From the human T2T-CHM13v2.0 reference genome, Homo sapiens: a stretch of DNA of 64,000 nt. The position numbers and the translations under genes are program-made. This document shows positions 2,978-63,941 of this stretch, in pieces (within the stretch, counting starts at the first letter, position 1; each line of letters starts with the position of its first letter). Under the pieces are notes generated by a model. That model was given only the letters and a program-made list of their open reading frames with translations. It had not been told where the DNA came from and did not search any database. The DNA lies in assembly GCF_009914755.1 (NCBI RefSeq), contig NC_060934.1; one strand, 5' to 3'.

Positions 2978-3297
2978 GTGTCAGCTTTATGAACACAGGA
3001 ATCACAACTTGTATGTCAGGATCCTAACAAGGGCATTCAAAATGGAATGATTCAAAGACAGCTGATTTGCAAACAGACTATTTAACAGTTGTTGGGCAGG
3101 GGAAGCATAAGATAGTGCAGTAGCCCCAGGTAGTAGCAGTTCAGCTGTTAACCACCCTTAGGCTCAGAGAGATGAGATTGTTACTGGAAAATGGAAGGAG
3201 AAAGTCTCACAGAAGCTTCCCTGAAAGGAAAATTATTCCTTAGTAGACTGACACAGCCTGCTCCAGGCAGTCCCAGCAGGGAGAGAACCAAAGAAAT

Positions 3298-13310: not shown

Positions 13311-16300
13311 TTTACTTGCATTATACGCAGAACATTAGAGGCATGGAACAGTGTCTGACACATGGTTGAAATTCAATATATATTGACTGAGTGAATTAAT
13401 GAATGAATAAAGATGGATCCATAAAGATAAATGGATGGCTAGATGGACAAAGTATGTTTTCTGAGTTCAGCTTCCCTAAAAAATACAGAGAATACAGAAA
13501 ACAACCACTGAAAAATTATTGGCAATTATCTCTATATTGGAGGAAACAATTTAGAACAACCTCTGCTGGTCATGATTGGGTTCAGGGATATGACTGGATT
13601 GGAGGCAGTAAGGTGACTTCTTTCATTCATCTTCCAAGAAAACAAAGTACTACTATATTTGAACTTACCTGGTAACTTTTACTCTATGTTGTTGTCGTTG
13701 TTTTCAAAAATAAACAAACCCCTCCCCACTCTTTCCTTTCTCTTGTTTTCATTTGTGTTTTTTTAAGTGTTTCGTGCTCACTTACCTAAATTACAAAGGT
13801 AACTTGGAAACACAGGGGTCTACATAATACGAGGTATAAGGGATTATGTACTGCCATTGTGAGAACCCCTCATACAATCCTGCCTTTTTTCTTTAGTTTC
13901 CCTCTTTTTGATCAGATTATGCTCCTGGTGTAAATCAGGCTCAGGACCAAGAGCCCTGGTGGGACCAGCAAGAGGGACACAGCAGGAAAAAGAAGAACAA
14001 TTCCTACCAAAGCATGTTACTAAGTTTCTTTCTCTCAGGAAGTAATAACAGGAATGTTTTCATTTTCTCAGTTCTAATGATTTCATACTGAAAGAGAAAA
14101 AATAAGTCACAAGACCAGTGATCTCCATGGCTGGATTGGCTCCAAGAGAAAAAATCCATGACAAGAATAGCTGGGAGTTGAGTCACTGTGCCCAGAAGTT
14201 CTGCAAACATGATTCAGGAGGTAATTCTCTCTGCTTTAGTGTAGCAGGAAGGTGTGGAGAAGGGTCCACTAACATGTATTAACAGCGTGCAGTTTGCCAG
14301 GCACCATCCCTGAGGCTTTTCTTGGTTTAGCTGATTTAATCCTTACAATAAACATCTGTGATAGGAAGCAGAGGGAAAGAGAGGTTAAGCAAGTTCCCCA
14401 GGGCCACACAACTAAAATGCTGCTCTATTTTGCTTCAGACCTGGAAGACCTGGCAATGTTATCTTAGTTTGGAATATTAACCAAAAATATAAAATTACAA
14501 AGACAGGCTCCAAATAGTTCTTTATGCTTTGGAAAAGTAAGAAGTCTCATAAAATATAATTGAATTGTGAAAAATGTAAAATCTTCAGTCTAGGTTAAAA
14601 AAAGTAATTATGGAAGAACACAAAATATATATTACTTACATATGTGTTATAGTAATATTATTTACATATGTTTATATTTTAAAATATGTAATATAAAATT
14701 ACTTTTATATATAGTATAATTAAAAGAATGTACATGGTCTAAATATATTTTGATAAAAATAATATATAGTCTTCTTTCATATGCACACACACACAGAGAC
14801 ATATATATAATGGAAACATACAGAATGGTAACAGGTTTTTACCAACAATTGCTTGTAGCTAATGTAGAACATACTTGAGAAAATGGCTTCTGTGAAAGAC
14901 CAGTTAGTACCAAAATAATCTGGCCCAGAAAAATAGCCACCATTCTTGACTACATTAATAGAAATAGAATAACCCCCAAAGGGAGATGAGAAGCATTCTA
15001 AAGTGCACTGATCATGAGTTTCTATGTGATGATTTGTGTCCATTTGGAGCTCCAGTGCTTTAAAGCTGAAATGAACCCTGGCCTTTCACCACCCTCCCTG
15101 CCCATAGTATGGTATATCCTCTTATTCCTTCCCTCTTAGCTTACTGAGAGTGTAATTTCCAACCAGTTAAGCCAAAGAGGACTATTTTCTAGAAAAGGAG
15201 AGAGAGAATGAATTAGCAGATAAATGAAGAGTGTGAGGGAGGCCTTTGGTGGTCCTAGGGTTGGAAGAGAGTTTTGGAGAAGCATTCAGGGATTTGCTTT
15301 CTACCAGGTGGCAGAATATAGGGAAAGATGGGAGTGTAAGGGGTTTGCATTTATGGAAGGATTCCAGATTTCTAAATGTATTGGCAGGAGCCAAGTTCCT
15401 GTCATGACCCTTGATTGGAGACCAGGGCTTCGAGCCAAACCACAAGGGATGATAGAGAACAATTGATAGAAAAATTCATTCATTTCCTGAGAAAGTAATA
15501 GGAAAATATAAACCCACAAACAAAAAGTGACCTTCCCATGCTCCCAGAGGGGTAACAGAATTGACAGTGGAAGGAGGGATTTTCCAGCCTAAACCTGGCC
15601 TATACACACTGTACTTAAGTAAGGAAGTGGGAAATGGTAGCCAAGTGTGAATTAAATAGCAACTCAACACCATTTTGGACAAAAAATGGGGCCAGGATTT
15701 AAGACATGGTGTGAAGCATCTGGTCAATTTCTTTGACCTGGAAATTCTAATTTCCGGAATGCATCGTATTGAAAAACCCACACAATTGTACAAAGACGGA
15801 CATACAGTGATATTCACTTCAACATTGTTTGTAATAGTGATAATCTGAAAATGACTTAAATGTCCAGCAAAAATACATTAATTAAACATTAAAATATGCC
15901 TATTAAATGTTGTCCTTGAAAAAAAATAGCAAGATTATAAGTACTGACATGGAGAGATACCCAAGATTTATCATTGAATTGAAAACCACAGCTACAAAAC
16001 AACATGGATGGGGAGTGATTAAAGCACATTATGATCCAAGTTTAACTTCAGACTTTTATTTTGTTTATACTGATGAATTTATAATATATAGATTTTTATT
16101 TTTATAATTAGAAAACATATGCAAAAAATTTAAGGGTATCAATGTGTAGCAAAGAAAAAAACAAAAGGAAGAATCTCCCTCCATAGTCAGGTAAAAAGTG
16201 AACGTGCTCTCAGGCAAACAGGAAAGGTTCCTTGAGACACTAGAAGGCAGGGGAGGGGTCTCCTGGGTACATTCTCCCTTCGCCTCCCACTGCCTCGCCT

Positions 16301-18893: not shown

Positions 18894-19291
18894 TGTTGAA
18901 TTAAGTTTCACTTAAAGCTGCCTCCTTGCATATTTTAAGTTCACCCTGACAGTTTTTCTGTACATAGTAAACTATAACCTAACTGGATGTGTAAACAGAC
19001 TGTAACCTACTCCTGTGCCACTCACAGTTTTGGCCAATCAAAGGTGGCCAACCATTCAAACCATGTTAAAATAAGGCAAATGCTGGGCTGTAACCAACAC
19101 TTCCATTTCTGTACCTCACTTCTGTTTTTTATAGGTCATTTTCCTTTTTCTGTCCATAAATCTTCTACCAGGCAGCTGCACCGGAGTCTCTCTGAGGCCA
19201 CTCTGGCTCGGAAGTCTGCCTGATTGGTGAATAATTCTTTGCTCAATTAAACTCTACTAAATTTAATTTGTCTAAGGTTTTTCTTTTAACA
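18894..19291 (+). mobile_element. MER57-family (ERV1) solo LTR
   Basis: TGTTGAATTAAGTTT...CTTTTAACA, 4-bp TSD TTAG, CCAAT box, CATAAA TATA-like box and ATTAAA. Confidence 0.8.
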
Positions 19292-19513
19292 TTAGCTACT
19301 GATGTCACTATTAATATTAGCTAGTGATGACAACAGTTCTCCGGAATCCACCCTAGTCCTGTGGTCATTTTTAGATTTCTGGTTCTCTGACCACTACATT
19401 GCTAATCCTCCTTCTAGTAAATTTTCATCTACCTTGAACTTCCTTACACACTATTCCCCCTAAACGTTGTTCCAGTTGAGTGCCCAGCCAGAAAGATTAA
19501 AGCTCTCCCTGCT

Positions 19514-19749
19514 GAAATCTCCTTTCCCTCCAGCAGGAAACCAGTGTAGTTATGTTGTTTGTACTTGCCAGGATACACTTCCATTTCATATTTGCAAGTA
19601 CACATAAAGGTATCCTTCATCAGCAGCACAGTGCTTCCTTTCCTCTGAATCTGCCATCAGCTCAGGCAGATTTCTAAGCAGCAAATCAGCCTTTGCCAGA
19701 ACACTGCAGGACACCAGTGCAGCGCCCAGCCTGCGACCATGAGGTAAAG
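19514..19749 (+). promoter_or_regulatory. IFIT-type distal promoter and first exon (candidate alternative IFIT2 exon 1)
   Basis: CATAAAGGTATCCTTCA aligns with the IFIT2/IFIT3 TATA segments. GCAGATTTCTAAGCAGCAAATCAGCC aligns with the IFIT3 5' UTR. It ends CTGCGACCATGAG|GTAAAG versus IFIT2 CTGCAACCATGAG|GTAAAT. Confidence 0.75.
19739..19743 (+). CDS. IFIT2: Coding ATGAG of the putative distal first exon; splicing to 41830 would give identical IFIT2 protein
   Basis: Kozak ACCATG, the same 5-nt coding micro-exon and the same phase-2 GT donor as the proximal exon. The splice is inferred, not observed. Confidence 0.55.
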
Positions 19750-20571
19750 GATTTTTTCTTGCATTTATCCCTTGAAATTATGTTGTGTGCCTTTGAAAAC
19801 CTCAAGGTAGATTTTCTTAGGTGCTGGATTTGGGCATCTGCTTAAATATTTAACATATCTTAGAGAATACTTGTTTCTTGTTAATTCAGGCATTTTAAAA
19901 TCTGTGGCGCTTCCAGACTCATATCAACATTCCCTGATGGAAGCCTTTAGCAATCCTAACCAGGAAGTGGCCAGAGCCTGGAGCCAGAGACGAACGTCCC
20001 TCATAGGAGGGGTTGCTGGAGGAGGAGGGGCAAATCTATTTCATTCTGTCCTTGCAGGCACATTTTCATCAGTTAATGATGCAAACCAGGCTGAAACGTT
20101 CTTAACAAGCATGTGTGTTTCTGTTTTTCATTTGAAAGTCAGGAGCATGAGGCTATATTCATCATAGAGGCAGGGTTTCTCTGTGTCAGAGCTCAGCATT
20201 GGCAGCTCTAGCAAAGGACAGGCTGCATTTAGCTGGTTCTTTTCTAAGGAGCCACAGTCAGGCACTAAACCAGCATCTACACCTCTGAGGCCCCTAAAAG
20301 CCTCCAGTGAAGCTGGGCTTGATCAGACCTCAAAAAGATCTCCCTTTGCATTTTGCTCTTAGTTCTCAGTGATCTTTAAAAAATAATAATAATAAAAAGA
20401 TTAGAATCATGAAAGATTTTTCTCAGGATATGAATACTATAGGCACACTAAAGAAACTTTGGAAAAATGCCAGCAAGTATAAGCGAAAAAAAATCATACT
20501 GCCCCTTATATCACCCACTGAAATTAAAATATTTAAACATTATGCTTCTGTGTACACCTGTATACGCTATA

Positions 20572-20970
20572 TGTCAGGCCTCTGAGCCCAAGCTAAGCCA
20601 TCATATACCCTGTGACCTGCACGTATAAATCCGGATGACCTGAAGTAACTGAAGAATCACAAAAGAAGTGAAAATGGCCTGTCCCTGCCTTAACTGATGA
20701 CATTACCTTGTGAAATTCCTTCTCCCAGCTCTTCCTGGCTCAAAAGCTCCCCCACTGAGCACCTTGTGCCCCCCACCCCTGCCAGCCAGAGAACATCCGC
20801 CTTTGACTGTAATTTTCCACTATCTACCCAAATCTTATAAAAACAGCCCATCCCATCTCCCTTCACTGACTCTCTTTTTGGACTCAGCTCGCCTGCACCC
20901 AGGTGATTAAAAAGCTTTATTGCTCACACAAAGCCTGTTTGGTGGTCTCTTCACATGGACGCGAGTGACA
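20572..20970 (+). repeat. 5' LTR7 (LTR7B-like)
   Basis: TGTCAGGCCTCTGAGCCC start, TATAAAA box, ATTAAA at 20906-20911. About 92% identical to the 3' LTR by hand count. Confidence 0.93.
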
Positions 20971-20972
20971 TT

Positions 20973-20990
20973 TGGTGCCGTGACTCGGAT
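20973..20990 (+). other. Primer-binding site for tRNA-His
   Basis: TGGTGCCGTGACTCGGAT is the 18-nt complement of the tRNA-His(GTG) 3' end including CCA. Confidence 0.95.
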
Positions 20991-21499
20991 CGGGGAACCT
21001 CCCTTGGGAGATCAATCCCCTGTCCTCCTGCTCTTTGTTCCAAGAGAAAGATCCACCTACGACCTCTGCTCCTCAGACCAACCAGCCCAAGGAACATCTC
21101 ACCAATTTTAAATCGGGTAAGTGGCCTGTCTTTACTCTCTTCTCCAATCTCTCTCACTATCCCTCAACCTCTTTCTCCTTTCAATCTCGGCACCACACTT
21201 CAATCTTTCCCTTCTCTTAATTTCAATTCCTTTCCTTTTTTGGTAGAGATACGGGAGATGTGTTTTATCTGTGGACTCAAAACTCCAGTGCTGGTCACAG
21301 ATTCGGGAAGACAGTCTTCCCTTGGTGTTTAATCACTGCAGAGATGCCTGCCTGATTATTCACCCACATTTCATTGGTGTCTGATCACCGTGGGGATGCC
21401 TGCCTTGGTCATTCACCCACATTCCCTTAGTGGCAAGGCAATTGTGGGGACACCTGCTTTGGCTGCTCACCCACATTTGCAGCCCAGGGCTGCTCACCC

Positions 21500-21740
21500 A
21501 ACCCCTTCTCTCCATGTCTCTACCCTCTCTTTTCTCTCCACTTTCCTGGGGGGCAAGGACCCCCTACCCCTTCTCCACTTTCCTGGGGGGCAAGCACCCC
21601 CCACTCCTTCTCTCTGTGTCTCTACCCTCTCTTTTCTCTCCACTTCCCTGGGGGACAAACACCCCACCCCTTCCCCATGTTCCTGGGGTGCAAGAACCCC
21701 CCACCCCTTCTCTCTGTGTCTCTACCCTCTCTTTTCTCTG
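21500..21740. repeat. Pyrimidine-rich alternating tandem repeats in the HERV-H leader
   Basis: TGTCTCTACCCTCTCTTTTCTCT occurs three times and CCTGGGG(G)...CAA four times. Confidence 0.8.
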
Positions 21741-22695
21741 GACTTGCCTCCTTCACTATAGGCAAACTTCCACCCTCCATTCCTCCTTCTTCTCCCTTAG
21801 CCTGTGTTCTCAAGAACTTAAAACCTCTTCAACTCACACCCGACTTAAAACCCAAATGCCTTATTTTCTTCTGCAATGCCACTTAACCCCAATACAAACT
21901 CGACAGTGGTTCCAAAGAGCCATAAAATGGCACTTTTGATTTCTCCATCCTACAACACCTAGATAATTTTTGTCGAAAAATGGGCAAATGGTCTGAGGTG
22001 CCTGACGTCCAGGCATTCTTTTACACATCGGTCCCTCGTCCCTCCCTAATCTCTGTTCCCAATGCAACTCATCCCAAATCTTCCTTCTTTCCCTCCTGCC
22101 TGTCCCCTCAGTTCCAACCCCAAGTGTCACTAAGTCTTTCCAATCTTCCTTTTCTACGGACCCATCTGACCTCTCCCCTCCTCCCCAGGCTGCTCCTAGC
22201 CAGGCCGAGCCAGTTCCAATTCTCCCTTAGCCTCCGCTCCCCCACCCTATAATCCTTCTATCACCTCCCCTCCTCACACCCAGTCCAGCTTCCAGTTTCG
22301 TTCTGCGACTAGCCCTCCCGGACCTGCCCAGCAATTTCCTCTTAAAAAGGTGGCTGGAGCTAAAGGCATAGTCAAGGTTAATGCTCCTTTTTCTTTATCC
22401 AACCTCTCCCAAATCAGTTAGCGTTTAGGCTCTTTTTCATCAAATATAAAAACCCAGCCCAGTTCATGGCTTGTTTGGCATCAACCCTGAGATGCTTTAC
22501 AGCCCTAGACCCTGAAAGGTCAAAAGGCCGTCTTATTCTCAATATACGTTTTATTACCCAATCTGCTCCCAACATTAAATAAAACTCCAAAAATTAAATT
22601 CCGGCCCTCAAACCCCACAATAGGATTTAATTAACCTTGCCTTCAAGGTGTACAATAATAGAGTAGAGTCAGCCAAGTAACAATGTATTTCTGAG

Positions 22696-22911
22696 TTGCA
22701 ATTCCTTGCCTCCACTGTGAGAGAAACCCCAGCCACATCTCCAGCACACAAGAACTTCAAAATGCCTAAGCCGCAGCAGTCAAGCATTCCTAGAGGACCT
22801 TCTCCATCAGGATCTTGCTTCAAGTGCCAGAAATCTGGCCACTGGGCCAAGGAATGCCCACAGCCCGGGATTCCTCCTAAGCTGTGTCCCATCTGTGTGG
22901 GACCCCACTGA
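22696..22911 (+). pseudogene. HERV-H gag nucleocapsid fragment
   Basis: Zinc knuckle CFKCQKSGHWAKEC. Confidence 0.85.
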
Positions 22912-23079
22912 AAATCAGACTGTCCAGCTCACCTGGCAGCCACTCCCAGAGCCCCTGGAACTCTGGCCCAAGGCTCTCTGATTGACTTCTTCCAAGATCT
23001 TCTGGGCTTAGTGGCTGAAGACTGACACTGCCCGATCACCTGAGAAGCCTCCTGGACCATCACAGATGCTTTAGGTAAC

Positions 23080-25535
23080 TCTTACAGTAGAGGGTAAGTC
23101 CATTCCCTTCTTAATCAATACAGAGGCTACCCACTCTGCATTACCTTCTTTTCAAGGTCCTGTTTCCCTTGCCTCCATAACTGTTGTGGGTATTGACGGC
23201 CAGGCTTCTAAACCTCTTAAAACTCCCCAACTCTGATGCCAACTTGGACAACATTCTTTTATGCACCCTTTTTTAATTATCCCCACCTGCCCAGTTCCCT
23301 TATTAGGCTGAGACATTTTAACCAAATTATCTGCTTCCCTGACTATTCCTAAACTACAGCCACATCTCATTGCCACCCTTCTTCCCAACCCAAAGCCTCC
23401 TTCATGTCTTCCTTTCATATCCCCCCACCTTAACCCACAAGTATAAGATACCTCTACTCCCTCCTTGGTGACTGATCATGCACCCCTTACCATCCCATTA
23501 AAACCTAATCACCCTTACACCACTCAATGCCAATATCCCATCCCACAGCACGCTTTAAAAAGGATTAAAGCATGTTATCACTTGCCTGTTACAGCATGGC
23601 CTTTTAAAGCCTATAAACTCTCCTTACAATTCCCCCATTTTACCTCTCCAAAAACCAGACAGGTCTTACAGGTTAGTTCAGGATCCGCACCTTATCAACC
23701 AAATTGTTTTGCCTATCCACCCTGTAGTGCCCAACTCGTACACTCTTTTGTCCTCAATACCTCCCTCCACAACCTCTCCACAACCCAGTATTCTGTTCTG
23801 GATCTCAAACATGCTTTCTTTACTATTCCTTTGCACCCTTCATCCCAGCCTCTTTTCACTTTCACTTGGACTGACCCCGACACCCATCAGGCTCAGCAAA
23901 TTACCTGGGCTGTACTGCTGCAAGGCTTTGCGGACAGCCCCCATTACTTCAGTCAAGTCCAAATTTCTTCTTCATCTGTTACCTATCTTGGCATAATTCT
24001 CCATGAAAACACATGTGCTCTCCCTGCTGATCATGTCTGACTAATCTCCCAAACCCCAACTCCTTCTACAAAACAACTGCTTTCCTTCCTAGGCATGGTT
24101 AGGTATTTCCACCTTTGGATACCTAGTTTTACCATCCTGACTAAACCATTATGTAAACTGACAAAAGCAAACCTAGCTGACCCCATAGATCCTAAATCCT
24201 TTTGCCACTCCTCTTTCCATTCCTTAAAAACAGCCCTAGAAGCTGCCCCCATGCTAGCTCTCCCTAACTCATCCCAACCCTTTTCGTTACACACAGCGAA
24301 AGTACAGGGCTGTGCAGTCAAAATTCTTACACAAGAGCCAGGACTGCATCCTGTAGCCTTTCTGTCCAAACAACCTGACCTTATTGTTTTAGGCTGGCCC
24401 CCACCCCCATGACTGTATCTCTCTGATCTACCTGACATTCACTCCATTTCCCCATATTTCCTTCTTTCCTGTTCCTCATCCTGATCACACTTGGTTTATT
24501 GATGGCAGTTCCACCAGGCCTAATCTCCACTCACCAGCAAAGGCAGGCTATACTATAGTATCTTCCACACCTATCATTGAGGCTACCACTCTGCCCCCTC
24601 CATTATCTCTCAGCAAGCCAAACTCATTGCCTTAACTCGGGCCCTCACTCTTGCAAAAGTACCACACATCAATATTTATACTGACTCTAAATATGCCTTC
24701 CATATCCTGCACCACCATGCTGTTACATGGGCAAAAAGAGGTTTCCTCACTACGCAAGGGTCCTCCATCATTAATTCCTCTTTAATAAAAACTCTTCTCA
24801 AGGCTGCTTTACTTCCAAAGGAAGCTGGAGTCATTCACTGCAAGGGCCATCAAAAGGCATCAGATCCCATTGCTCAGGGCAATGCTTATGCTGATAAGGT
24901 AGCTAAAGAAGCAGCTAGCATTCCAACTTCTGTCCTTCACGGCCAGTTTTTCTCCTTCTCAATGGTCACTCCCACCTACTCTCCCACTGAAACTTCCACC
25001 TATCAATCTCTTCCCACACAAGGCAAATGGTTCTTGGACCAAGGAAAATATCTCCTTCCAGCCTCACGGGCCCATTCTATTCTATCGTCATTTCATAACC
25101 TCTTCCATGTAGGTTACAAGCCACTAGCCCACCTCTTAGAACCTCTCATTTCCTTTCCATCATGGAAATCTATCCTTAAGGAAATCACTTCTCAGTGTTC
25201 CATCTGCTATTCTACTGCTCCTCAGGGAATGTTCAGGCCCCCTCCCTTCCTTACACACTAAGCTCGGGGATTTGCCTCTTCCCAGGACTGGCAAATTGAC
25301 TTTACTCACATGCTTCAAGTCAGGAAACTAAAATCCCTTTTGGTCTGGGTAGACACTTTCACTGGATGGGTAGAGGCCTTTCCCACAGGGTCTGAAAAGG
25401 CCACCATGGTCATTTCTTCCCTTCTGTGAGACAAAATTCCTCTGTTTGGCCTTTCCACCTCTATACAGTCTAATAACGAACCGGCCTTTATTAGTCAAAT
25501 CACCCAAGCAGTTTCTCAGGCTCTTGGTATTCAGT
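23080..25535 (+). pseudogene. HERV-H pro/pol (RT, RNase H, integrase) fragments
   Basis: LDLKHAFFTIPL and QGFADSPHYF (RT), WFIDGSS (RNase H) and DWQIDFT (integrase). Broken by stops, frameshifts and deletions. Confidence 0.88.
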
Positions 25536-26348
25536 GGCGCCTGGTTTTACCTCAAACTGCCACCCTTAAGTCTCTGTTTGAACGGATAGAAGATCTTTGG
25601 TGACAAAGTATACTCTAATACTTTCACCCCGATGAAGTCCTATTCTTTACTTTTACACTTACTCTTATTCTCGTTCCCATTCTTAGGCCACCCTCTACCT
25701 CTCCCCAGCTATCTCCACCACACTATCAATCTCAGTCACTCTCTCCTAGCCATTTCTAATCCTTCTTTAACAAACAATTGCTGGCTTTGCATTTCTCTTT
25801 CCTACAAAATCGCTGAGGCCTTGACTTACTCACTGCTAAAAAAAAAGGGGGGGGGGGACTCTGTATATTTTCACATGAAGAGTGCTGTTTTTACCTAAAT
25901 CAATCTGGCCTGGTATATGACAACAATAAAAAAAACTCAAAGATAGAGCCTAAAAACTTGCCAACCAAGCAAGTAATTACACTAAACCCTCTTGGACCCC
26001 CTTGGACACTCTCTAATTAGATGTCCTGGGTCCTCCCAATTCTTAGTCCTTTATTATCTGTTTTTCTCCTCCTCTTATTTGGACCTTATGTCTTCCATTT
26101 AGTTTCTCAATTCATCCAAAACCGTATCCAGGCCATCACCAATCATCCTATACAACAAATGCTCCTTCTAACAACCCCACAGTATCACCCCTTACCACAA
26201 AATCTTTCTTCAGCTTAATCTCTCCCACTCTAGAAGCAGCCCTGAGAAACATCGCCCATTATCTCTCCATGCCACCCCCAAAATTTTTGCTGCCAACACT
26301 TCAATACTATTTTATGCTATTTTTCTTATTAATATAAGAAGACAGGAA

Positions 26349-26747
26349 TGTCAGGCCTCTGAGCCCAAGCTAAGCCAACATATCCCCTGTGACCTGCACG
26401 TATAAATCCAGATGGCCTGAAGTAACTGAAGAATCACAAAAAAAGTGAAAACGTCCTGTCCCTGCCTTAACTGATGACATTACCTTGTGAAATTCCTTTT
26501 CCTGGCTCATCCTAGCTCAAAAGCTCCCGCACTGAGCACCTGGTGACCCCCACCTCTGCCAGCCAGAGAACAACCCCCTTTGATGTAATTTTCCACTATC
26601 TACCCAAATCTTATAAAACGGCCCCGGCCCTATCTCCCTTCACTGACTCTCTTTTCAGACTCAGCCTGCCTGCACCCAGGTGATTAAAAAGCTTTATTGC
26701 TCACACAAAGCCTGTTTGGTGGTCTCTTCACGTGGAAAAGAGTGAAA
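26349..26747 (+). repeat. 3' LTR7 (LTR7B-like)
   Basis: Direct repeat of 20572-20970, with ATTAAA at 26683-26688. Confidence 0.93.
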
Positions 26748-27699: not shown

Positions 27700-28020
27700 T
27701 GAACTAACCTTCACTTCTCCCCAGGTGGGCCATGAACTAGTGCTTCCTAATAGAATGTGAGTGAATGTGATGTATGTCATTTCCAAGTAAAGATGGTTAA
27801 GAATCAGGTGTACCCTCTTTACTCTCAATTTCCAGGCTCTAGGGGATGGTAGAGTCACAGGATGGAAGAACTCTGTGTCCTTGAATCATTGCATGGAAGA
27901 GAACTGGAAGTTGCCCAGGAACACCAGCCTTGGACAGTTATGTGAACAAGAAATAAACTTCTTTTACAGTGTCATTTATGTTTTTGAGCATCTTTGTTAC
28001 AGCGGCTAGGTGTATACTAA
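27700..28020 (+). mobile_element. Old MLT1 (MaLR) LTR
   Basis: AATAGAATGTGAGTGAATGTGATG...GAAATAAACTTC...TTTGTTACAGC. Confidence 0.6.
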
Positions 28021-36870: not shown

Positions 36871-37423
36871 TTAATAATTATAATAGAAACTAGCATTTAC
36901 TTATTACTGCCAGGCATTATTCTAAGGACATTTCACGTATTCTCTCATTTCATCCTCCCAACACCACAATAAACCAGTAGTTGTATTATTCCCAATTTAC
37001 AAAACCGAAGCAGAGACATTCAATAATTTTCCCCAGAGTTTCATAGCATAAAGGTGGAAGCTGATTTCAAATCCAGATAGACAGACATCACTGCCCATGC
37101 TTCTAATCATGTATTCATTTAGTCAACAACTACTTTTGGAATGCTTGCCATACCATGCAATGTGCAGGTTGTTTTGCAGGGACTGGAGATTCAGCAATGA
37201 TTCAGACTAAAATCCCCTGCCCTGTCGAGGCTAAATAACTGCTCCTTACAGTGGCCTGTGGATCATATTGGTATAAGGCAGAGCAAAGATGGGTTAATAT
37301 GGTAATCACAAGGCAGGGAGCTTTGTAAATGTGTCCTCCTAGGAGTTGTGCTCCCTTGATGCCATCAGTACATTCCACAAAGAGGAAGTTCTTCTAACTC
37401 ACTACGCAGCTGGGCTTGGCTCT

Positions 37424-37745
37424 TACTCAAGAGCATTTTGGGGTGAAAATATCTAAGTTTACCAGCCCTTGTGCAAATCTGAGATGAAGGACTACATTAA
37501 AAGTAAAATTCACCTTAGCAGGAAGTGGGGTTTGCTATTCTGTGTATATCTTTAACAGTATCTGCTGAAAAGAACCCTTTTGTTAAATAATTGTATTACA
37601 AGTCCCCAACTTAATCTTTTCGAATATGAAATAAGAGAGGGACAGTGCACAAGAGCAATGTCCCCAGACCCATCTTTAAGTGAAGCACCAGGCCGATGAA
37701 ACATCCCTCTCTGCTGCCTTCTTTCTCTGATCACAACTCAGCTCC
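37424..37745 (+). repeat. Inverted repeat, left arm (322 bp), upstream of the IFIT2 promoter
   Basis: Reverse complement of 38237-38562. Hand alignment gives 12 substitutions and 2 indels (3 bp and 1 bp). Confidence 0.97.
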
Positions 37746-37762
37746 GGAGGAAAAAGAGTCCT

Positions 37763-37787
37763 CTAAAGTATAATAAAAAGAAAAAAA
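37763..37787 (+). mobile_element. Ultra-short L1 3'-tail insertion (25 bp)
   Basis: CTAAAGTATAATAAAAAGAAAAAAA matches the L1PA terminus TAAAGTATAATAA(A)n and lies between perfect 13-bp repeats GAAAAAGAGTCCT (37750-37762 and 37788-37800). Confidence 0.75.
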
Positions 37788-37803
37788 GAAAAAGAGTCCT
37801 GCC

Positions 37804-37830
37804 AATTTCACTTTCTAGTTTCACTTTCCC
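37804..37830 (+). promoter_or_regulatory. IFIT2: Tandem ISREs of the IFIT2/ISG54 promoter
   Basis: AATTTCACTTTCT followed by AGTTTCACTTTCCC, the classical ISG54 ISRE. Confidence 0.95.
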
Positions 37831-37835
37831 TTTTG

Positions 37836-37891
37836 TAACGTCAGCTGAAGGGAAACAAACAAAAAGGAACCAGAGGCCACTTGTATATATA
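37836..37891 (+). promoter_or_regulatory. IFIT2: IFIT2 core promoter: CRE-like TAACGTCA, E-box TCAGCTGA, TATA box
   Basis: TAACGTCA at 37836-37843, TCAGCTGA at 37841-37848 and TATATATA at 37884-37891. TSS expected ~37915. Confidence 0.75.
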
Positions 37892-37991
37892 GGTCTCTTC
37901 AGCATTTATTGGTGGCAGAAGAGGAAGATTTCTGAAGAGTGCAGCTGCCTGAACCGAGCCCTGCCGAACAGCTGAGAATTGCACTGCAACC

Positions 37992-37996
37992 ATGAG
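37992..37996 (+). CDS. IFIT2: IFIT2 coding exon 1 (ATG AG)
   Basis: ACCATGAG|GTAAAT donor. Joining to 41830 gives MSENNKNSLESSLRQLKCHFTW, the IFIT family two-exon structure. Confidence 0.95.
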
Positions 37997-38236
37997 GTAA
38001 ATATTTTCCCTTCGTATTCGGTAGTGCTGTTGAGTCATCTTGTCCAATGCAAATCCTGAGAAGCTATGTTCCCAAAGAGGGCCAGCTCCATTTTAGTGTT
38101 TGTTTATAGCCTTACTATGCCTCTACCTCTGTTGGTTGTAAATCTGTCTTACCAATGGTGGTTTGTTCCCTCCTGAACAATTTTCTGCTTCACACTGGCA
38201 AGCTTCCTAAATTCATCTCCAGAACTGCACGCCTGG

Positions 38237-38562
38237 GGAGTTGAGTTGCAATCAGAGAAAGAAGGCAGCAGAGAGGGATGATGTTTCATCGGCCTGGTGC
38301 TTCACTTAAAGATGGGTCTGGGGGCATTGCTCTTGTGCACTGACCCTGTCTTATTTCATATTTGAAAGGATTAAGTTGGGGACTTGTAATACAATTATTT
38401 AACAAAAGGGTTCTTTTCAGCAGATACTGTTAAAGATATACACAGAATAGCAAACCCCACTTCCTGCAAAGGTGAATTTTACTTTTAATGTAGTTCTTCA
38501 TCTCAGATTTGCACAAGGGCTGGTAAACTTAAATATTTTCACCCCAAAATGCCTCCTGAGTA
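38237..38562 (-). repeat. Inverted repeat, right arm (326 bp), in the IFIT2 intron
   Basis: Reverse complement of 37424-37745. Confidence 0.97.
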
Positions 38563-39086
38563 TGAATTAGAGATGGAGTGCTTGGAGAAAATAGTTCTGT
38601 TCTCACCTCTAACATTCCCTTCTATCCCCAAAACATGAGACTGCCCTGGAGAGGAAGTGTTAGCTCATTGAATAGGAAGGGAAATATTTTCTCCAGTTTG
38701 AAGGTGGGGTGGCCGGACCTGGTTGCCTAACCCTCATCCTGGGAGCTCTGGAATCCCGTGTTACCAACCCCTGTGCTTACTTCCTATGAGACACCTTGCC
38801 TTCTGTCTGTGAGGTTCCTGATTTCTCTTCTTGAAACGATATTATTTCCTGCTAGTCTAAATGTTCTGCCTGATTTCAAAAAAAAAAAAAAAAGATTTGA
38901 GATATTTACAGATTTCTTTTTTTTGTAGTCACCCAGAATCTATAGAACCCTTTTCTTATTTCTTAGAATTTTAGCATGGTCTTATCTTAGAATTTTTCCC
39001 ATTACAATACAGACCCATCTGTCCTTTCTTTCCTTAATTCTTTATCTATTGTGACTTTCACTGGGCATTGCCCTTGTGCCCTAAGA

Positions 39087-41829: not shown

Positions 41830-43243
41830 TGAGAACAATAAGAATTCCTTGGAGAGCAGCCTACGGCAACTAAAATGCCATTTCACCTGGAACTTGATGG
41901 AGGGAGAAAACTCCTTGGATGATTTTGAAGACAAAGTATTTTACCGGACTGAGTTTCAGAATCGTGAATTCAAAGCCACAATGTGCAACCTACTGGCCTA
42001 TCTAAAGCACCTCAAAGGGCAAAACGAGGCAGCCCTGGAATGCTTACGTAAAGCTGAAGCGTTAATCCAGCAAGAGCATGCTGACCAGGCAGAAATCAGA
42101 AGTCTGGTCACCTGGGGAAACTATGCCTGGGTCTACTATCACATGGGCCGACTCTCAGACGTTCAGATTTATGTAGACAAGGTGAGACATGTCTGTGAGA
42201 AGTTTTCCAGTCCCTATAGAATTGAGAGTCCAGAGCTTGACTGTGAGGAAGGGTGGACACGGTTAAAGTGTGGAGGAAACCAAAATGAAAGAGCGAAGGT
42301 GTGCTTTGAGAAGGCTCTGGAAAAGAAGCCAAAGAACCCAGAATTCACCTCTGGACTGGCAATAGCAAGCTACCGTCTGGACAACTGGCCACCATCTCAG
42401 AACGCCATTGACCCTCTGAGGCAAGCCATTCGGCTGAATCCTGACAACCAGTACCTTAAAGTCCTCCTGGCTCTGAAGCTTCATAAGATGCGTGAAGAAG
42501 GTGAAGAGGAAGGTGAAGGAGAGAAGTTAGTTGAAGAAGCCTTGGAGAAAGCCCCAGGTGTAACAGATGTACTTCGCAGTGCAGCCAAGTTTTATCGAAG
42601 AAAAGATGAGCCAGACAAAGCGATTGAACTGCTTAAAAAGGCTTTAGAATACATACCAAACAATGCCTACCTGCATTGCCAAATTGGGTGCTGCTATAGG
42701 GCAAAAGTCTTCCAAGTAATGAATCTAAGAGAGAATGGAATGTATGGGAAAAGAAAGTTACTGGAACTAATAGGACACGCTGTGGCTCATCTGAAGAAAG
42801 CTGATGAGGCCAATGATAATCTCTTCCGTGTCTGTTCCATTCTTGCCAGCCTCCATGCTCTAGCAGATCAGTATGAAGAAGCAGAGTATTACTTCCAAAA
42901 GGAATTCAGTAAAGAGCTTACTCCTGTAGCGAAACAACTGCTCCATCTGCGGTATGGCAACTTTCAGCTGTACCAAATGAAGTGTGAAGACAAGGCCATC
43001 CACCACTTTATAGAGGGTGTAAAAATAAACCAGAAATCAAGGGAGAAAGAAAAGATGAAAGACAAACTGCAAAAAATTGCCAAAATGCGACTTTCTAAAA
43101 ATGGAGCAGATTCTGAGGCTTTGCATGTCTTGGCATTCCTTCAGGAGCTGAATGAAAAAATGCAACAAGCAGATGAAGACTCTGAGAGGGGTTTGGAGTC
43201 TGGAAGCCTCATCCCTTCAGCATCAAGCTGGAATGGGGAATGA
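41830..43243 (+). CDS. IFIT2: IFIT2 coding exon 2: interferon-induced protein with tetratricopeptide repeats 2 (ISG54), 472 aa in total
   Basis: Acceptor TTTTTCCCTACAG|T. Intact ORF with the IFIT signature LKCHFTW, TPR helices, EEGEEEGEGE and C-terminus SASSWNGE*. Confidence 0.99.
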
Positions 43244-63706: not shown

Positions 63707-63842
63707 GGTTTCATTTTCCTCCTCCCAACGATTTTAAATTAGTTTCACTTTCCAGTTTCCTCTTCCTTCCCCTAAAAGCAATTACTCAAAAACGGAGAAA
63801 ACATCAGCTGATGCGTGCCCTACTCTCCCACCCCTTTATATA
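63707..63842 (+). promoter_or_regulatory. IFIT3: IFIT3 promoter: ISREs, E-box, TATA
   Basis: GGTTTCATTTTC (63707-63718), AGTTTCACTTTCC (63741-63753), AGTTTCCTCTTCC (63754-63766), TCAGCTGA (63804-63811) and TTTATATA (63835-63842). Confidence 0.88.
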
Positions 63843-63941
63843 GTTCCTTCAGTATTTACTTGAGGCAGACAGGAAGACTTCTGAAGAACAAATCAGCCTG
63901 GTCACCAGCTTTTCGGAACAGCAGAGACACAGAGGGCAGTC

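What the first reader, a model, noticed from the sequence alone, without database searches (positions are those of the whole stretch)
19514..19749. Orphan IFIT-type first exon 18 kb upstream of IFIT2 with intact ATGAG|GT but decayed ISRE
Seen: CTGCGACCATGAG|GTAAAG differs from IFIT2 CTGCAACCATGAG|GTAAAT at 2 of 19 positions. The 5' UTR segment GCAGATTTCTAAGCAGCAAATCAGCC resembles IFIT3 GAAGACTTCTGAAGAACAAATCAGCC, and CATAAAGGTATCCTTCA resembles both TATA segments. At the ISRE position there is only AATCTCCTTTCCC. An ETS/PU.1-like CACTTCCATTTC (~19576) and TTTGCAA are present instead. I see no IFIT exon 2 before 41830. Inference: this is a duplicated first exon producing identical IFIT2 protein under different, possibly interferon-independent or cell-type-specific, control. 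I recall gene models extending IFIT2 about this far upstream, so the exon may be annotated; its paralogous origin is the point of interest.
Basis: partly seen in the sequence, partly recalled or inferred. Interest (0 to 1): 0.7.

Follow-up and report, generated by a model that had tools for sequence, protein, structure and literature searches.

The report
Spare IFIT first exon upstream IFIT2
An old duplicate of the antiviral IFIT genes' start exon sits 18 kb before IFIT2, has lost the interferon switch, and is catalogued as the start of a non-coding RNA; it would give normal IFIT2 protein if it were spliced on to IFIT2, which is likely rare and was not shown here.

Summary
A profile built from six other IFIT first exons scores 19658-19765 at 40.8 bits (E 5.8e-12). 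The orphan scores 30-47 bits against five-exon profiles, within the range of held-out real exons (15-67). ATGAG|GT is intact and no ISRE remains. No IFIT exon 2 remnant lies upstream of IFIT2.

The exon is already annotated, but as non-coding. GENCODE ENST00000448897 (RP11-149I23.3) starts in it and splices 19743->27836, where the ATG meets a stop after 3 codons. RefSeq's predicted LOC124902477 splices the same donor into a HERV-H-like LTR.

A direct 19743->41830 splice would give the identical 472-aa IFIT2, but no call shows that junction. My recollection that Ensembl extends IFIT2 this far was not confirmed.

Spare first exons recur in the cluster: IFIT3 has two, and IFIT1 and IFIT1B carry decayed ones. 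I did not find the paralogous origin in print.

A 330-bp, 94% inverted repeat brackets IFIT2's own promoter and would fold any read-through RNA. Verdict: real, modestly new; the IFIT2-coding role is unproven.

The parts
19482..19765 (+). Paralogous IFIT promoter / first-exon / early-intron cassette
   Evidence: Alignment to IFIT3 from about 19482; profile hit 19658-19765, E 5.8e-12
19556..19590 (+).
   Evidence: Alignment; no ISRE within 2 mismatches
19603..19609 (+). CATAAAG, non-canonical TATA-like box; IFIT2's 28-nt TATA-to-start spacing would put the start near 19631 (inferred)
19651..19743 (+). First exon of GENCODE ENST00000448897 / RP11-149I23.3. Start inferred from the 232-nt length with a 3' end at 27974 (19621 if the end is 27944). 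Also the 3' end of exon 1 of predicted LOC124902477
   Evidence: PMC5133950 supplement row; mapping; hub annotation
19739..19749 (+). ATG in good Kozak context and splice donor AG|GTAAAG (same 9-mer as IFIT1B's donor)
18894..19291 (+). Solo LTR-like dispersed repeat (TG...CA, 4-bp target duplication) about 340 bp above the inferred start; family (MER51/MER57-like) recalled, not tested
   Evidence: 2531 first-look candidates, 40 scored; the 39 other copies 79-83% identical; ends
20572..26747 (+). HERV-H-like provirus (family name recalled) inserted 830 bp below the donor; LTRs 364/397 identical, about 20-37 My; 5-bp target duplication. The 5' LTR supplies annotated exon starts 20888 and 20934 and a poly(A) hexamer at 20906
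   Evidence: hub annotation
27836..27974 (+). Terminal non-coding exon with AATAAA at 27952, inside an old dispersed repeat (MaLR-like, recalled)
   Evidence: 8 other genome matches at 71-86%
37421..37750 (.). Left arm of the inverted repeat around the IFIT2 promoter and exon 1
   Evidence: only the two arms match genome-wide
37914..37996 (+). IFIT2 canonical first exon (ISRE-driven), in the 480-bp spacer of the inverted repeat
   Evidence: Hub annotation
38232..38565 (.). Right arm of the inverted repeat, in IFIT2 intron 1
41830..43243 (+). IFIT2 exon 2 coding part; the only acceptor tested that gives a long frame from the orphan ATG (472 codons)

Best explanation
This is an old duplicate of the IFIT promoter and first exon that has lost its ISRE and is annotated as the start of a spliced non-coding RNA; its transcripts are likely caught mostly by repeat-derived acceptors and poly(A) signals downstream, and only a minority would reach IFIT2 exon 2 and give normal IFIT2. 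Shown: paralogy, intact ATGAG|GT, ISRE loss, annotated junctions to 27836 and 20888, stop after 3 or 7 codons on those junctions, and identity of the protein on a junction to 41830. Inferred: that the cassette arose by duplication of the first-exon unit alone, as at IFIT3, IFIT1 and IFIT1B; that it is driven by non-interferon inputs; that trapping dominates; and that some RNA escapes over 22 kb to IFIT2.
For: Paralogy. Annotated first exon with junction 19743->27836, and primers mapping at 19684-19704 and 27925-27946. RefSeq's predicted model ends an exon at exactly 19743 (hub table), with GT-AG ends. Poly(A) hexamers at 20906, 26683 and 27952 lie between the orphan and IFIT2. Spare cassettes recur: a second ATGAG|GT exon with a perfect ISRE 4.5 kb inside IFIT3, and decayed copies 2 kb above IFIT1 and 3.6 kb above IFIT1B. 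No exon-2 debris, although IFIT6P is easily detected. The transcript's probe moves opposite to OAS1 in two cell-line pairs.
Against: No call measures junction proportions, so 'mostly trapped' reflects annotation, not counts. RefSeq's model starts at 15228, not in the cassette. The array probe has 50 of 60 bases in the 27836 exon, so LTR-started RNAs could give the signal; the text does not say whether this RNA was among the 22 of 26 confirmed by qPCR. The orphan is as well preserved as working exons (30-47 bits vs 15-67), while the IFIT1/1B relics (not detected to 27 bits) lost ATGAG|GT; this hints at selection on a coding role. Neutral retention of the 8 invariant bases is still 4-43% depending on the assumed per-site rate. 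Homology is limited to about -190..+170, which cannot separate cassette from whole-gene duplication.
Confidence: 0.55

Rival explanations
1. A conserved distal promoter of IFIT2: in some cell types it supplies interferon-independent IFIT2 by splicing 19743->41830, and the non-coding RNAs are by-products.
For: Identical 472-aa product. Of the acceptors tested only 41830 gives a long frame; 0 of 22 AG sites near the proximal exon do. Intact Kozak ATG and donor. Mouse, dog and horse IFIT2 have three-exon models (PMC3688568 section 6) and mouse has an exon upstream of its two coding exons (PMC3355090 passages). Recalled only: Ensembl's IFIT2 span begins near window 19,550-19,620.
Against: No junction evidence in any call. 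The mouse upstream exon is non-coding and its orthology is untested. The only IFIT2 row in the human macrophage splicing table searched is the canonical intron (file cut when stored). A provirus with acceptor and poly(A) signal was tolerated 830 bp below the donor.
Confidence: 0.25
2. The leftover 5' end of a whole IFIT gene whose coding exon was deleted; it is unconnected with IFIT2 and persists neutrally as a lncRNA promoter.
For: The orphan is not close to any one paralog (tree unresolved; local scores 31-60 against the six). Gene birth, loss and conversion are frequent in the cluster (PMC4887208 passages). IFIT6P shows such decay.
Against: No exon-2 trace in window 1-41500 or the 20 kb upstream. 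Doubled first exons without a second coding exon occur at three other IFIT genes.
Confidence: 0.14
3. The cassette acts on IFIT2 in cis rather than by coding: its transcription, or the read-through RNA folding on the 330-bp inverted repeat, tunes the proximal promoter.
For: An RNA spanning 37421-38565 is predicted to fold into a duplex of 315 Watson-Crick pairs (-688 kcal/mol) with the proximal exon in the loop.
Against: Arm mismatches show no bias to G-U on the + strand (5 G-U, 4 A-C, 6 other). Annotated transcripts end 9.4 kb before the repeat.
Confidence: 0.05
4. Chance resemblance around a common ATG and splice donor.
For: ATGAGGT occurs 10 times in the window on both strands.
Against: E 5.8e-12; E 4.4e-5 with the core masked; 0 of 1000 shuffles reach the score.
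Confidence: 0.01

Closest known systems
RP11-149I23.3 / ENST00000448897 (GENCODE lncRNA) and LOC124902477 (RefSeq predicted)
   Same: The orphan exon is their first exon or donor (hub table).
   Different: The five papers in which I read passages on this RNA or its recalled alias AL353751.1 list it only as a differentially expressed lncRNA; IFIT2 did not occur in the four main texts searched for it.
Canonical IFIT first exon (5' UTR + ATG + 2 nt, ISRE promoter; PMC3688568 passage)
   Same: Homologous UTR, Kozak ATG, AG|GT donor in the same phase.
   Different: No ISRE, doubtful TATA, no coding exon of its own, documented splicing only to non-coding exons.
IFIT3's two alternative first exons (second one's annotation recalled)
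   Same: Duplicated first-exon cassettes upstream of one coding exon.
   Different: Both IFIT3 cassettes keep a perfect ISRE and lie 4.5 kb apart; here the spare is 18 kb away, ISRE-less and separated by retroelement traps.
IFIT1B promoter
   Same: Intact first exon without a typical ISRE (PMC3688568 passage); same donor 9-mer.
   Different: IFIT1B has its own coding exon.
Mouse Ifit2 upstream exon 1 and mouse Ifit1b distal start (PMC3355090, PMC7762956 passages)
   Same: An extra upstream first exon on an Ifit gene.
   Different: The mouse Ifit2 exon is non-coding and joins the proximal exon; orthology to this cassette could not be tested.

Membership tests
IFIT first-exon cassette | Sequence homology to IFIT 5' UTR / promoter | tested here: met
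   E 5.8e-12; within held-out range
IFIT first-exon cassette | Exon ends in ATG + 2 nt followed by GT donor | tested here: met
IFIT first-exon cassette | ISRE(s) within about 200 bp upstream | tested here: not met
   None within 2 mismatches in 400 bp; IFIT1B also lacks a typical one
IFIT first-exon cassette | TATA box 25-30 bp above the start | tested here: inconclusive
   CATAAAG at 19603 only; offset differs from paralogs
IFIT first-exon cassette | Transcribed as a first exon with a used donor | tested here: met
   Annotation-level: GENCODE model starts in it and crosses 19743->27836; no raw reads or CAGE seen
Alternative first exon of IFIT2 | In frame with IFIT2 exon 2 | tested here: met
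   472 codons, identical protein
Alternative first exon of IFIT2 | Observed junction 19743->41830 | not testable with these tools
   No RNA-seq access; literature and supplement look-ups found none
Alternative first exon of IFIT2 | ATG/donor conserved across mammals | not testable with these tools
   No other mammalian genome is held
IFIT unprocessed pseudogene (IFIT6P-like) | Decayed exon 2 downstream | tested here: not met
   (IFIT6P control 886 bits)

The most novel reading that the evidence does not exclude
A mammal-wide, ISRE-free second promoter makes full-length IFIT2 without interferon in particular cell states. Its 22-kb pre-mRNA folds the 330-bp inverted repeat into a duplex that loops out the normal first exon and steers splicing straight to exon 2, while primate retroelement insertions divert part of the output into a lncRNA.
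Probability: 0.12. Interest if true: 0.7.

Novelty: new variant of a known kind. Interest (0 to 1): 0.36.

Why it matters
At the least, it reinterprets a lncRNA that recurs in cancer expression lists (RP11-149I23.3) as the output of a duplicated IFIT promoter, and shows that spare first exons are a repeated feature of the IFIT cluster. If the junction to IFIT2 is used, IFIT2 has an interferon-independent route to expression that gene-level counts cannot see; one junction query tests it.

Tried and rejected
Chance match: rejected.

Exon-2 remnant upstream of IFIT2: none.

Recent copy of IFIT2's exon 1: rejected; identity is 66% over 97 nt, no more than between other paralogs.

Placing the orphan on a tree of 9 cassettes: unresolved; only the two relics group with support, so they count as one loss event, not two.

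A mouse-like route through the proximal exon: 0 of 22 AG sites in 37780-37990 give a frame longer than 63 codons from the orphan ATG.

ETS, C/EBP, GAS, NF-kB, AP-1 and HNF1 pattern scans gave no strong site in the core promoter.

G-U strand bias in the inverted repeat: none.

A genome-wide profile search could not be run, so the genome-wide control is a DNA search (1 match, itself) and a pattern search.

Literature: nine completed searches (listings read only) plus one search gave no paper on the exon's origin or on the inverted repeat. Supplement searches of PMC11133395 and PMC8191339 had no IFIT2 row. PMC5358891's filtered CAGE tables showed p1@IFIT2 and no peak at the orphan's hg19 position (filtered lists, so not evidence of absence). 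HERVH_10q23 mentions could not be tied to this provirus.

Full report
What was checked. The window is human chr10 around IFIT2. The orphan 19-mer at 19731-19749 differs from IFIT2's at 2 of 19 positions, and the next-best site in the window has 4 mismatches. A pattern covering both matches exactly 2 places in the genome (designed after the fact). Local alignments of the 351-bp cassette score 57 against IFIT2 and 61 against IFIT3, with 0 of 1000 shuffles reaching either.

Paralogy. I fetched 120 kb of flanking genome and found the ATGAG|GT exons of IFIT1B, IFIT1 and IFIT5 at their annotated starts, plus a second one with a perfect ISRE inside IFIT3 (its annotation as an alternative first exon is recalled). 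A profile from these six, without the orphan, hits 19658-19765 at 40.8 bits, E 5.8e-12. In leave-one-out tests the orphan scores 30-47 bits and the held-out real exons 15-67; with the core masked it keeps E 4.4e-5. The same profile finds two more decayed cassettes, above IFIT1 (E 3.4e-6) and IFIT1B (E 0.0016), both without ATGAG|GT. They are each other's closest relatives (100/99 support), so they are one loss. The orphan's place on the tree is unresolved.

Promoter. No ISRE within 2 mismatches lies in the 400 bp above the orphan ATG; 5 of 6 paralogs have a perfect one and IFIT1B does not, as PMC3688568 also states (passage). CATAAAG at 19603 is a weak TATA; with IFIT2's spacing it would place the start near 19631. 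A solo LTR-like repeat ends at 19291.

No coding exon of its own. tblastn and blastn in the window, a genome-wide protein search (9 matches: five genes, IFIT6P twice, chr13 twice) and an exon-2 DNA profile (IFIT6P control 886 bits, nothing in window 1-41500) find no remnant.

What it is spliced to. A supplement row of PMC5133950 lists GENCODE ENST00000448897 (RP11-149I23.3), 232 nt, hg19 chr10:+ 91043555-91051882, with a probe across the junction. The junction is 19743->27836, the primers map at 19684-19704 and 27925-27946, the start is about 19651, and the ATG meets a stop after 3 codons. The terminal exon lies in an old dispersed repeat. The hub's RefSeq table has predicted LOC124902477 using the same donor into 20888, inside the 5' LTR of a HERV-H-like provirus at 20572-26747 (family name recalled; LTRs 364/397 identical, about 20-37 My), with a stop after 7 codons; the exon start at 20934 would give 60. 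So the exon is annotated and its donor is used, but the documented products are non-coding.

Expression leads. The probe rises 42x and 9x in metastatic nasopharyngeal lines while OAS1 falls 2.2-2.6x. The probe has 50 of 60 bases outside the orphan exon, and the text does not name this RNA among the 22 of 26 confirmed. It also appears in liver and ovarian cancer lists (PMC9741990, PMC9254473 passages). AL353751.1, recalled as the same gene, is listed among TGF-beta-linked lncRNAs (PMC8322425 passages) and in an astrocyte list (bioRxiv 10.1101/2025.10.16.682876 passage).

The IFIT2 question. A direct splice to 41830 gives the identical 472-aa protein; 0 of 22 AG sites near the proximal exon give a long frame. 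I recall Ensembl extending IFIT2 to about here, but the search for those identifiers returned 0 papers and supplement searches showed only the canonical intron or nothing. Mouse, dog and horse IFIT2 have three-exon models (PMC3688568 section 6), mouse has an exon upstream of its coding exons (PMC3355090 passages), and mouse Ifit1b has a distal start (PMC7762956 passages). Orthology could not be tested. Retention of the core is only weak evidence of selection: 4-43% by chance for 8 bases under the rates tried.

Inverted repeat. Arms at 37421-37750 and 38232-38565 (94% overall, 97% over 273 nt) bracket IFIT2's promoter and first exon and match nowhere else in the genome search. No other cassette has a flanking inverted repeat of such identity (others 71-89%). 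An RNA spanning both arms is predicted to form a duplex of 315 pairs, so any orphan-to-IFIT2 pre-mRNA would loop out the proximal exon. There is no G-U strand bias, and a search found no paper on it (listing only).

Verdict. A real, old, ISRE-less IFIT first-exon duplicate, already annotated as a lncRNA start. Its paralogous origin was not found in ten searches, which miss most subscription journals. Most likely it mainly feeds non-coding RNA, with minor escape to IFIT2 (0.55). A physiologically important second IFIT2 promoter remains open (0.25) and is testable with one junction query. PMC4887208 was read as passages only, for cluster turnover.

Noticed in passing
window 37421-37750 and 38232-38565: 330-bp inverted repeat, 94% identical (99-bp perfect run), unique in the genome search, bracketing the IFIT2 promoter and exon 1. 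The left arm lies in the first exon of antisense lncRNA LOC105378419, so both divergent transcripts carry the same sequence. Candidate for gene conversion, a polymorphic inversion or dsRNA.
   Followed up: partly
L008:5547-5622 (window-relative about 126,550) and L006:9135-9402 (about 110,130-110,400): Two decayed IFIT first-exon cassettes upstream of IFIT1 and IFIT1B, 63% identical to each other over 385 columns, both lacking ATGAG|GT; the IFIT1B one retains ISRE-like sites although IFIT1B's own promoter lacks a typical ISRE.
   Followed up: partly
window 20572-26747: HERV-H-like provirus (name recalled) with both LTRs and a 5-bp target duplication, sense to IFIT2; supplies acceptors, donors (21116, 23074) and poly(A) hexamers to LOC124902477.
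   Followed up: partly
window 18894-19291: Solo LTR-like high-copy repeat just above the orphan promoter, not in the hub's list of longest masked stretches; possible regulatory input.
   Followed up: partly
L005:7119-8843 (window-relative about 98,120-99,840): IFIT6P homology extends beyond its annotated span (98452-99345) at both ends, with a gap of about 325 bp near the 3' end; the first-exon profile found no cassette for it.
   Followed up: no
window 63794-63847 and L002 about 3164-3216: Short inverted match (54 nt, 78%) between IFIT3's first promoter and its early intron; significance unknown.
   Followed up: no
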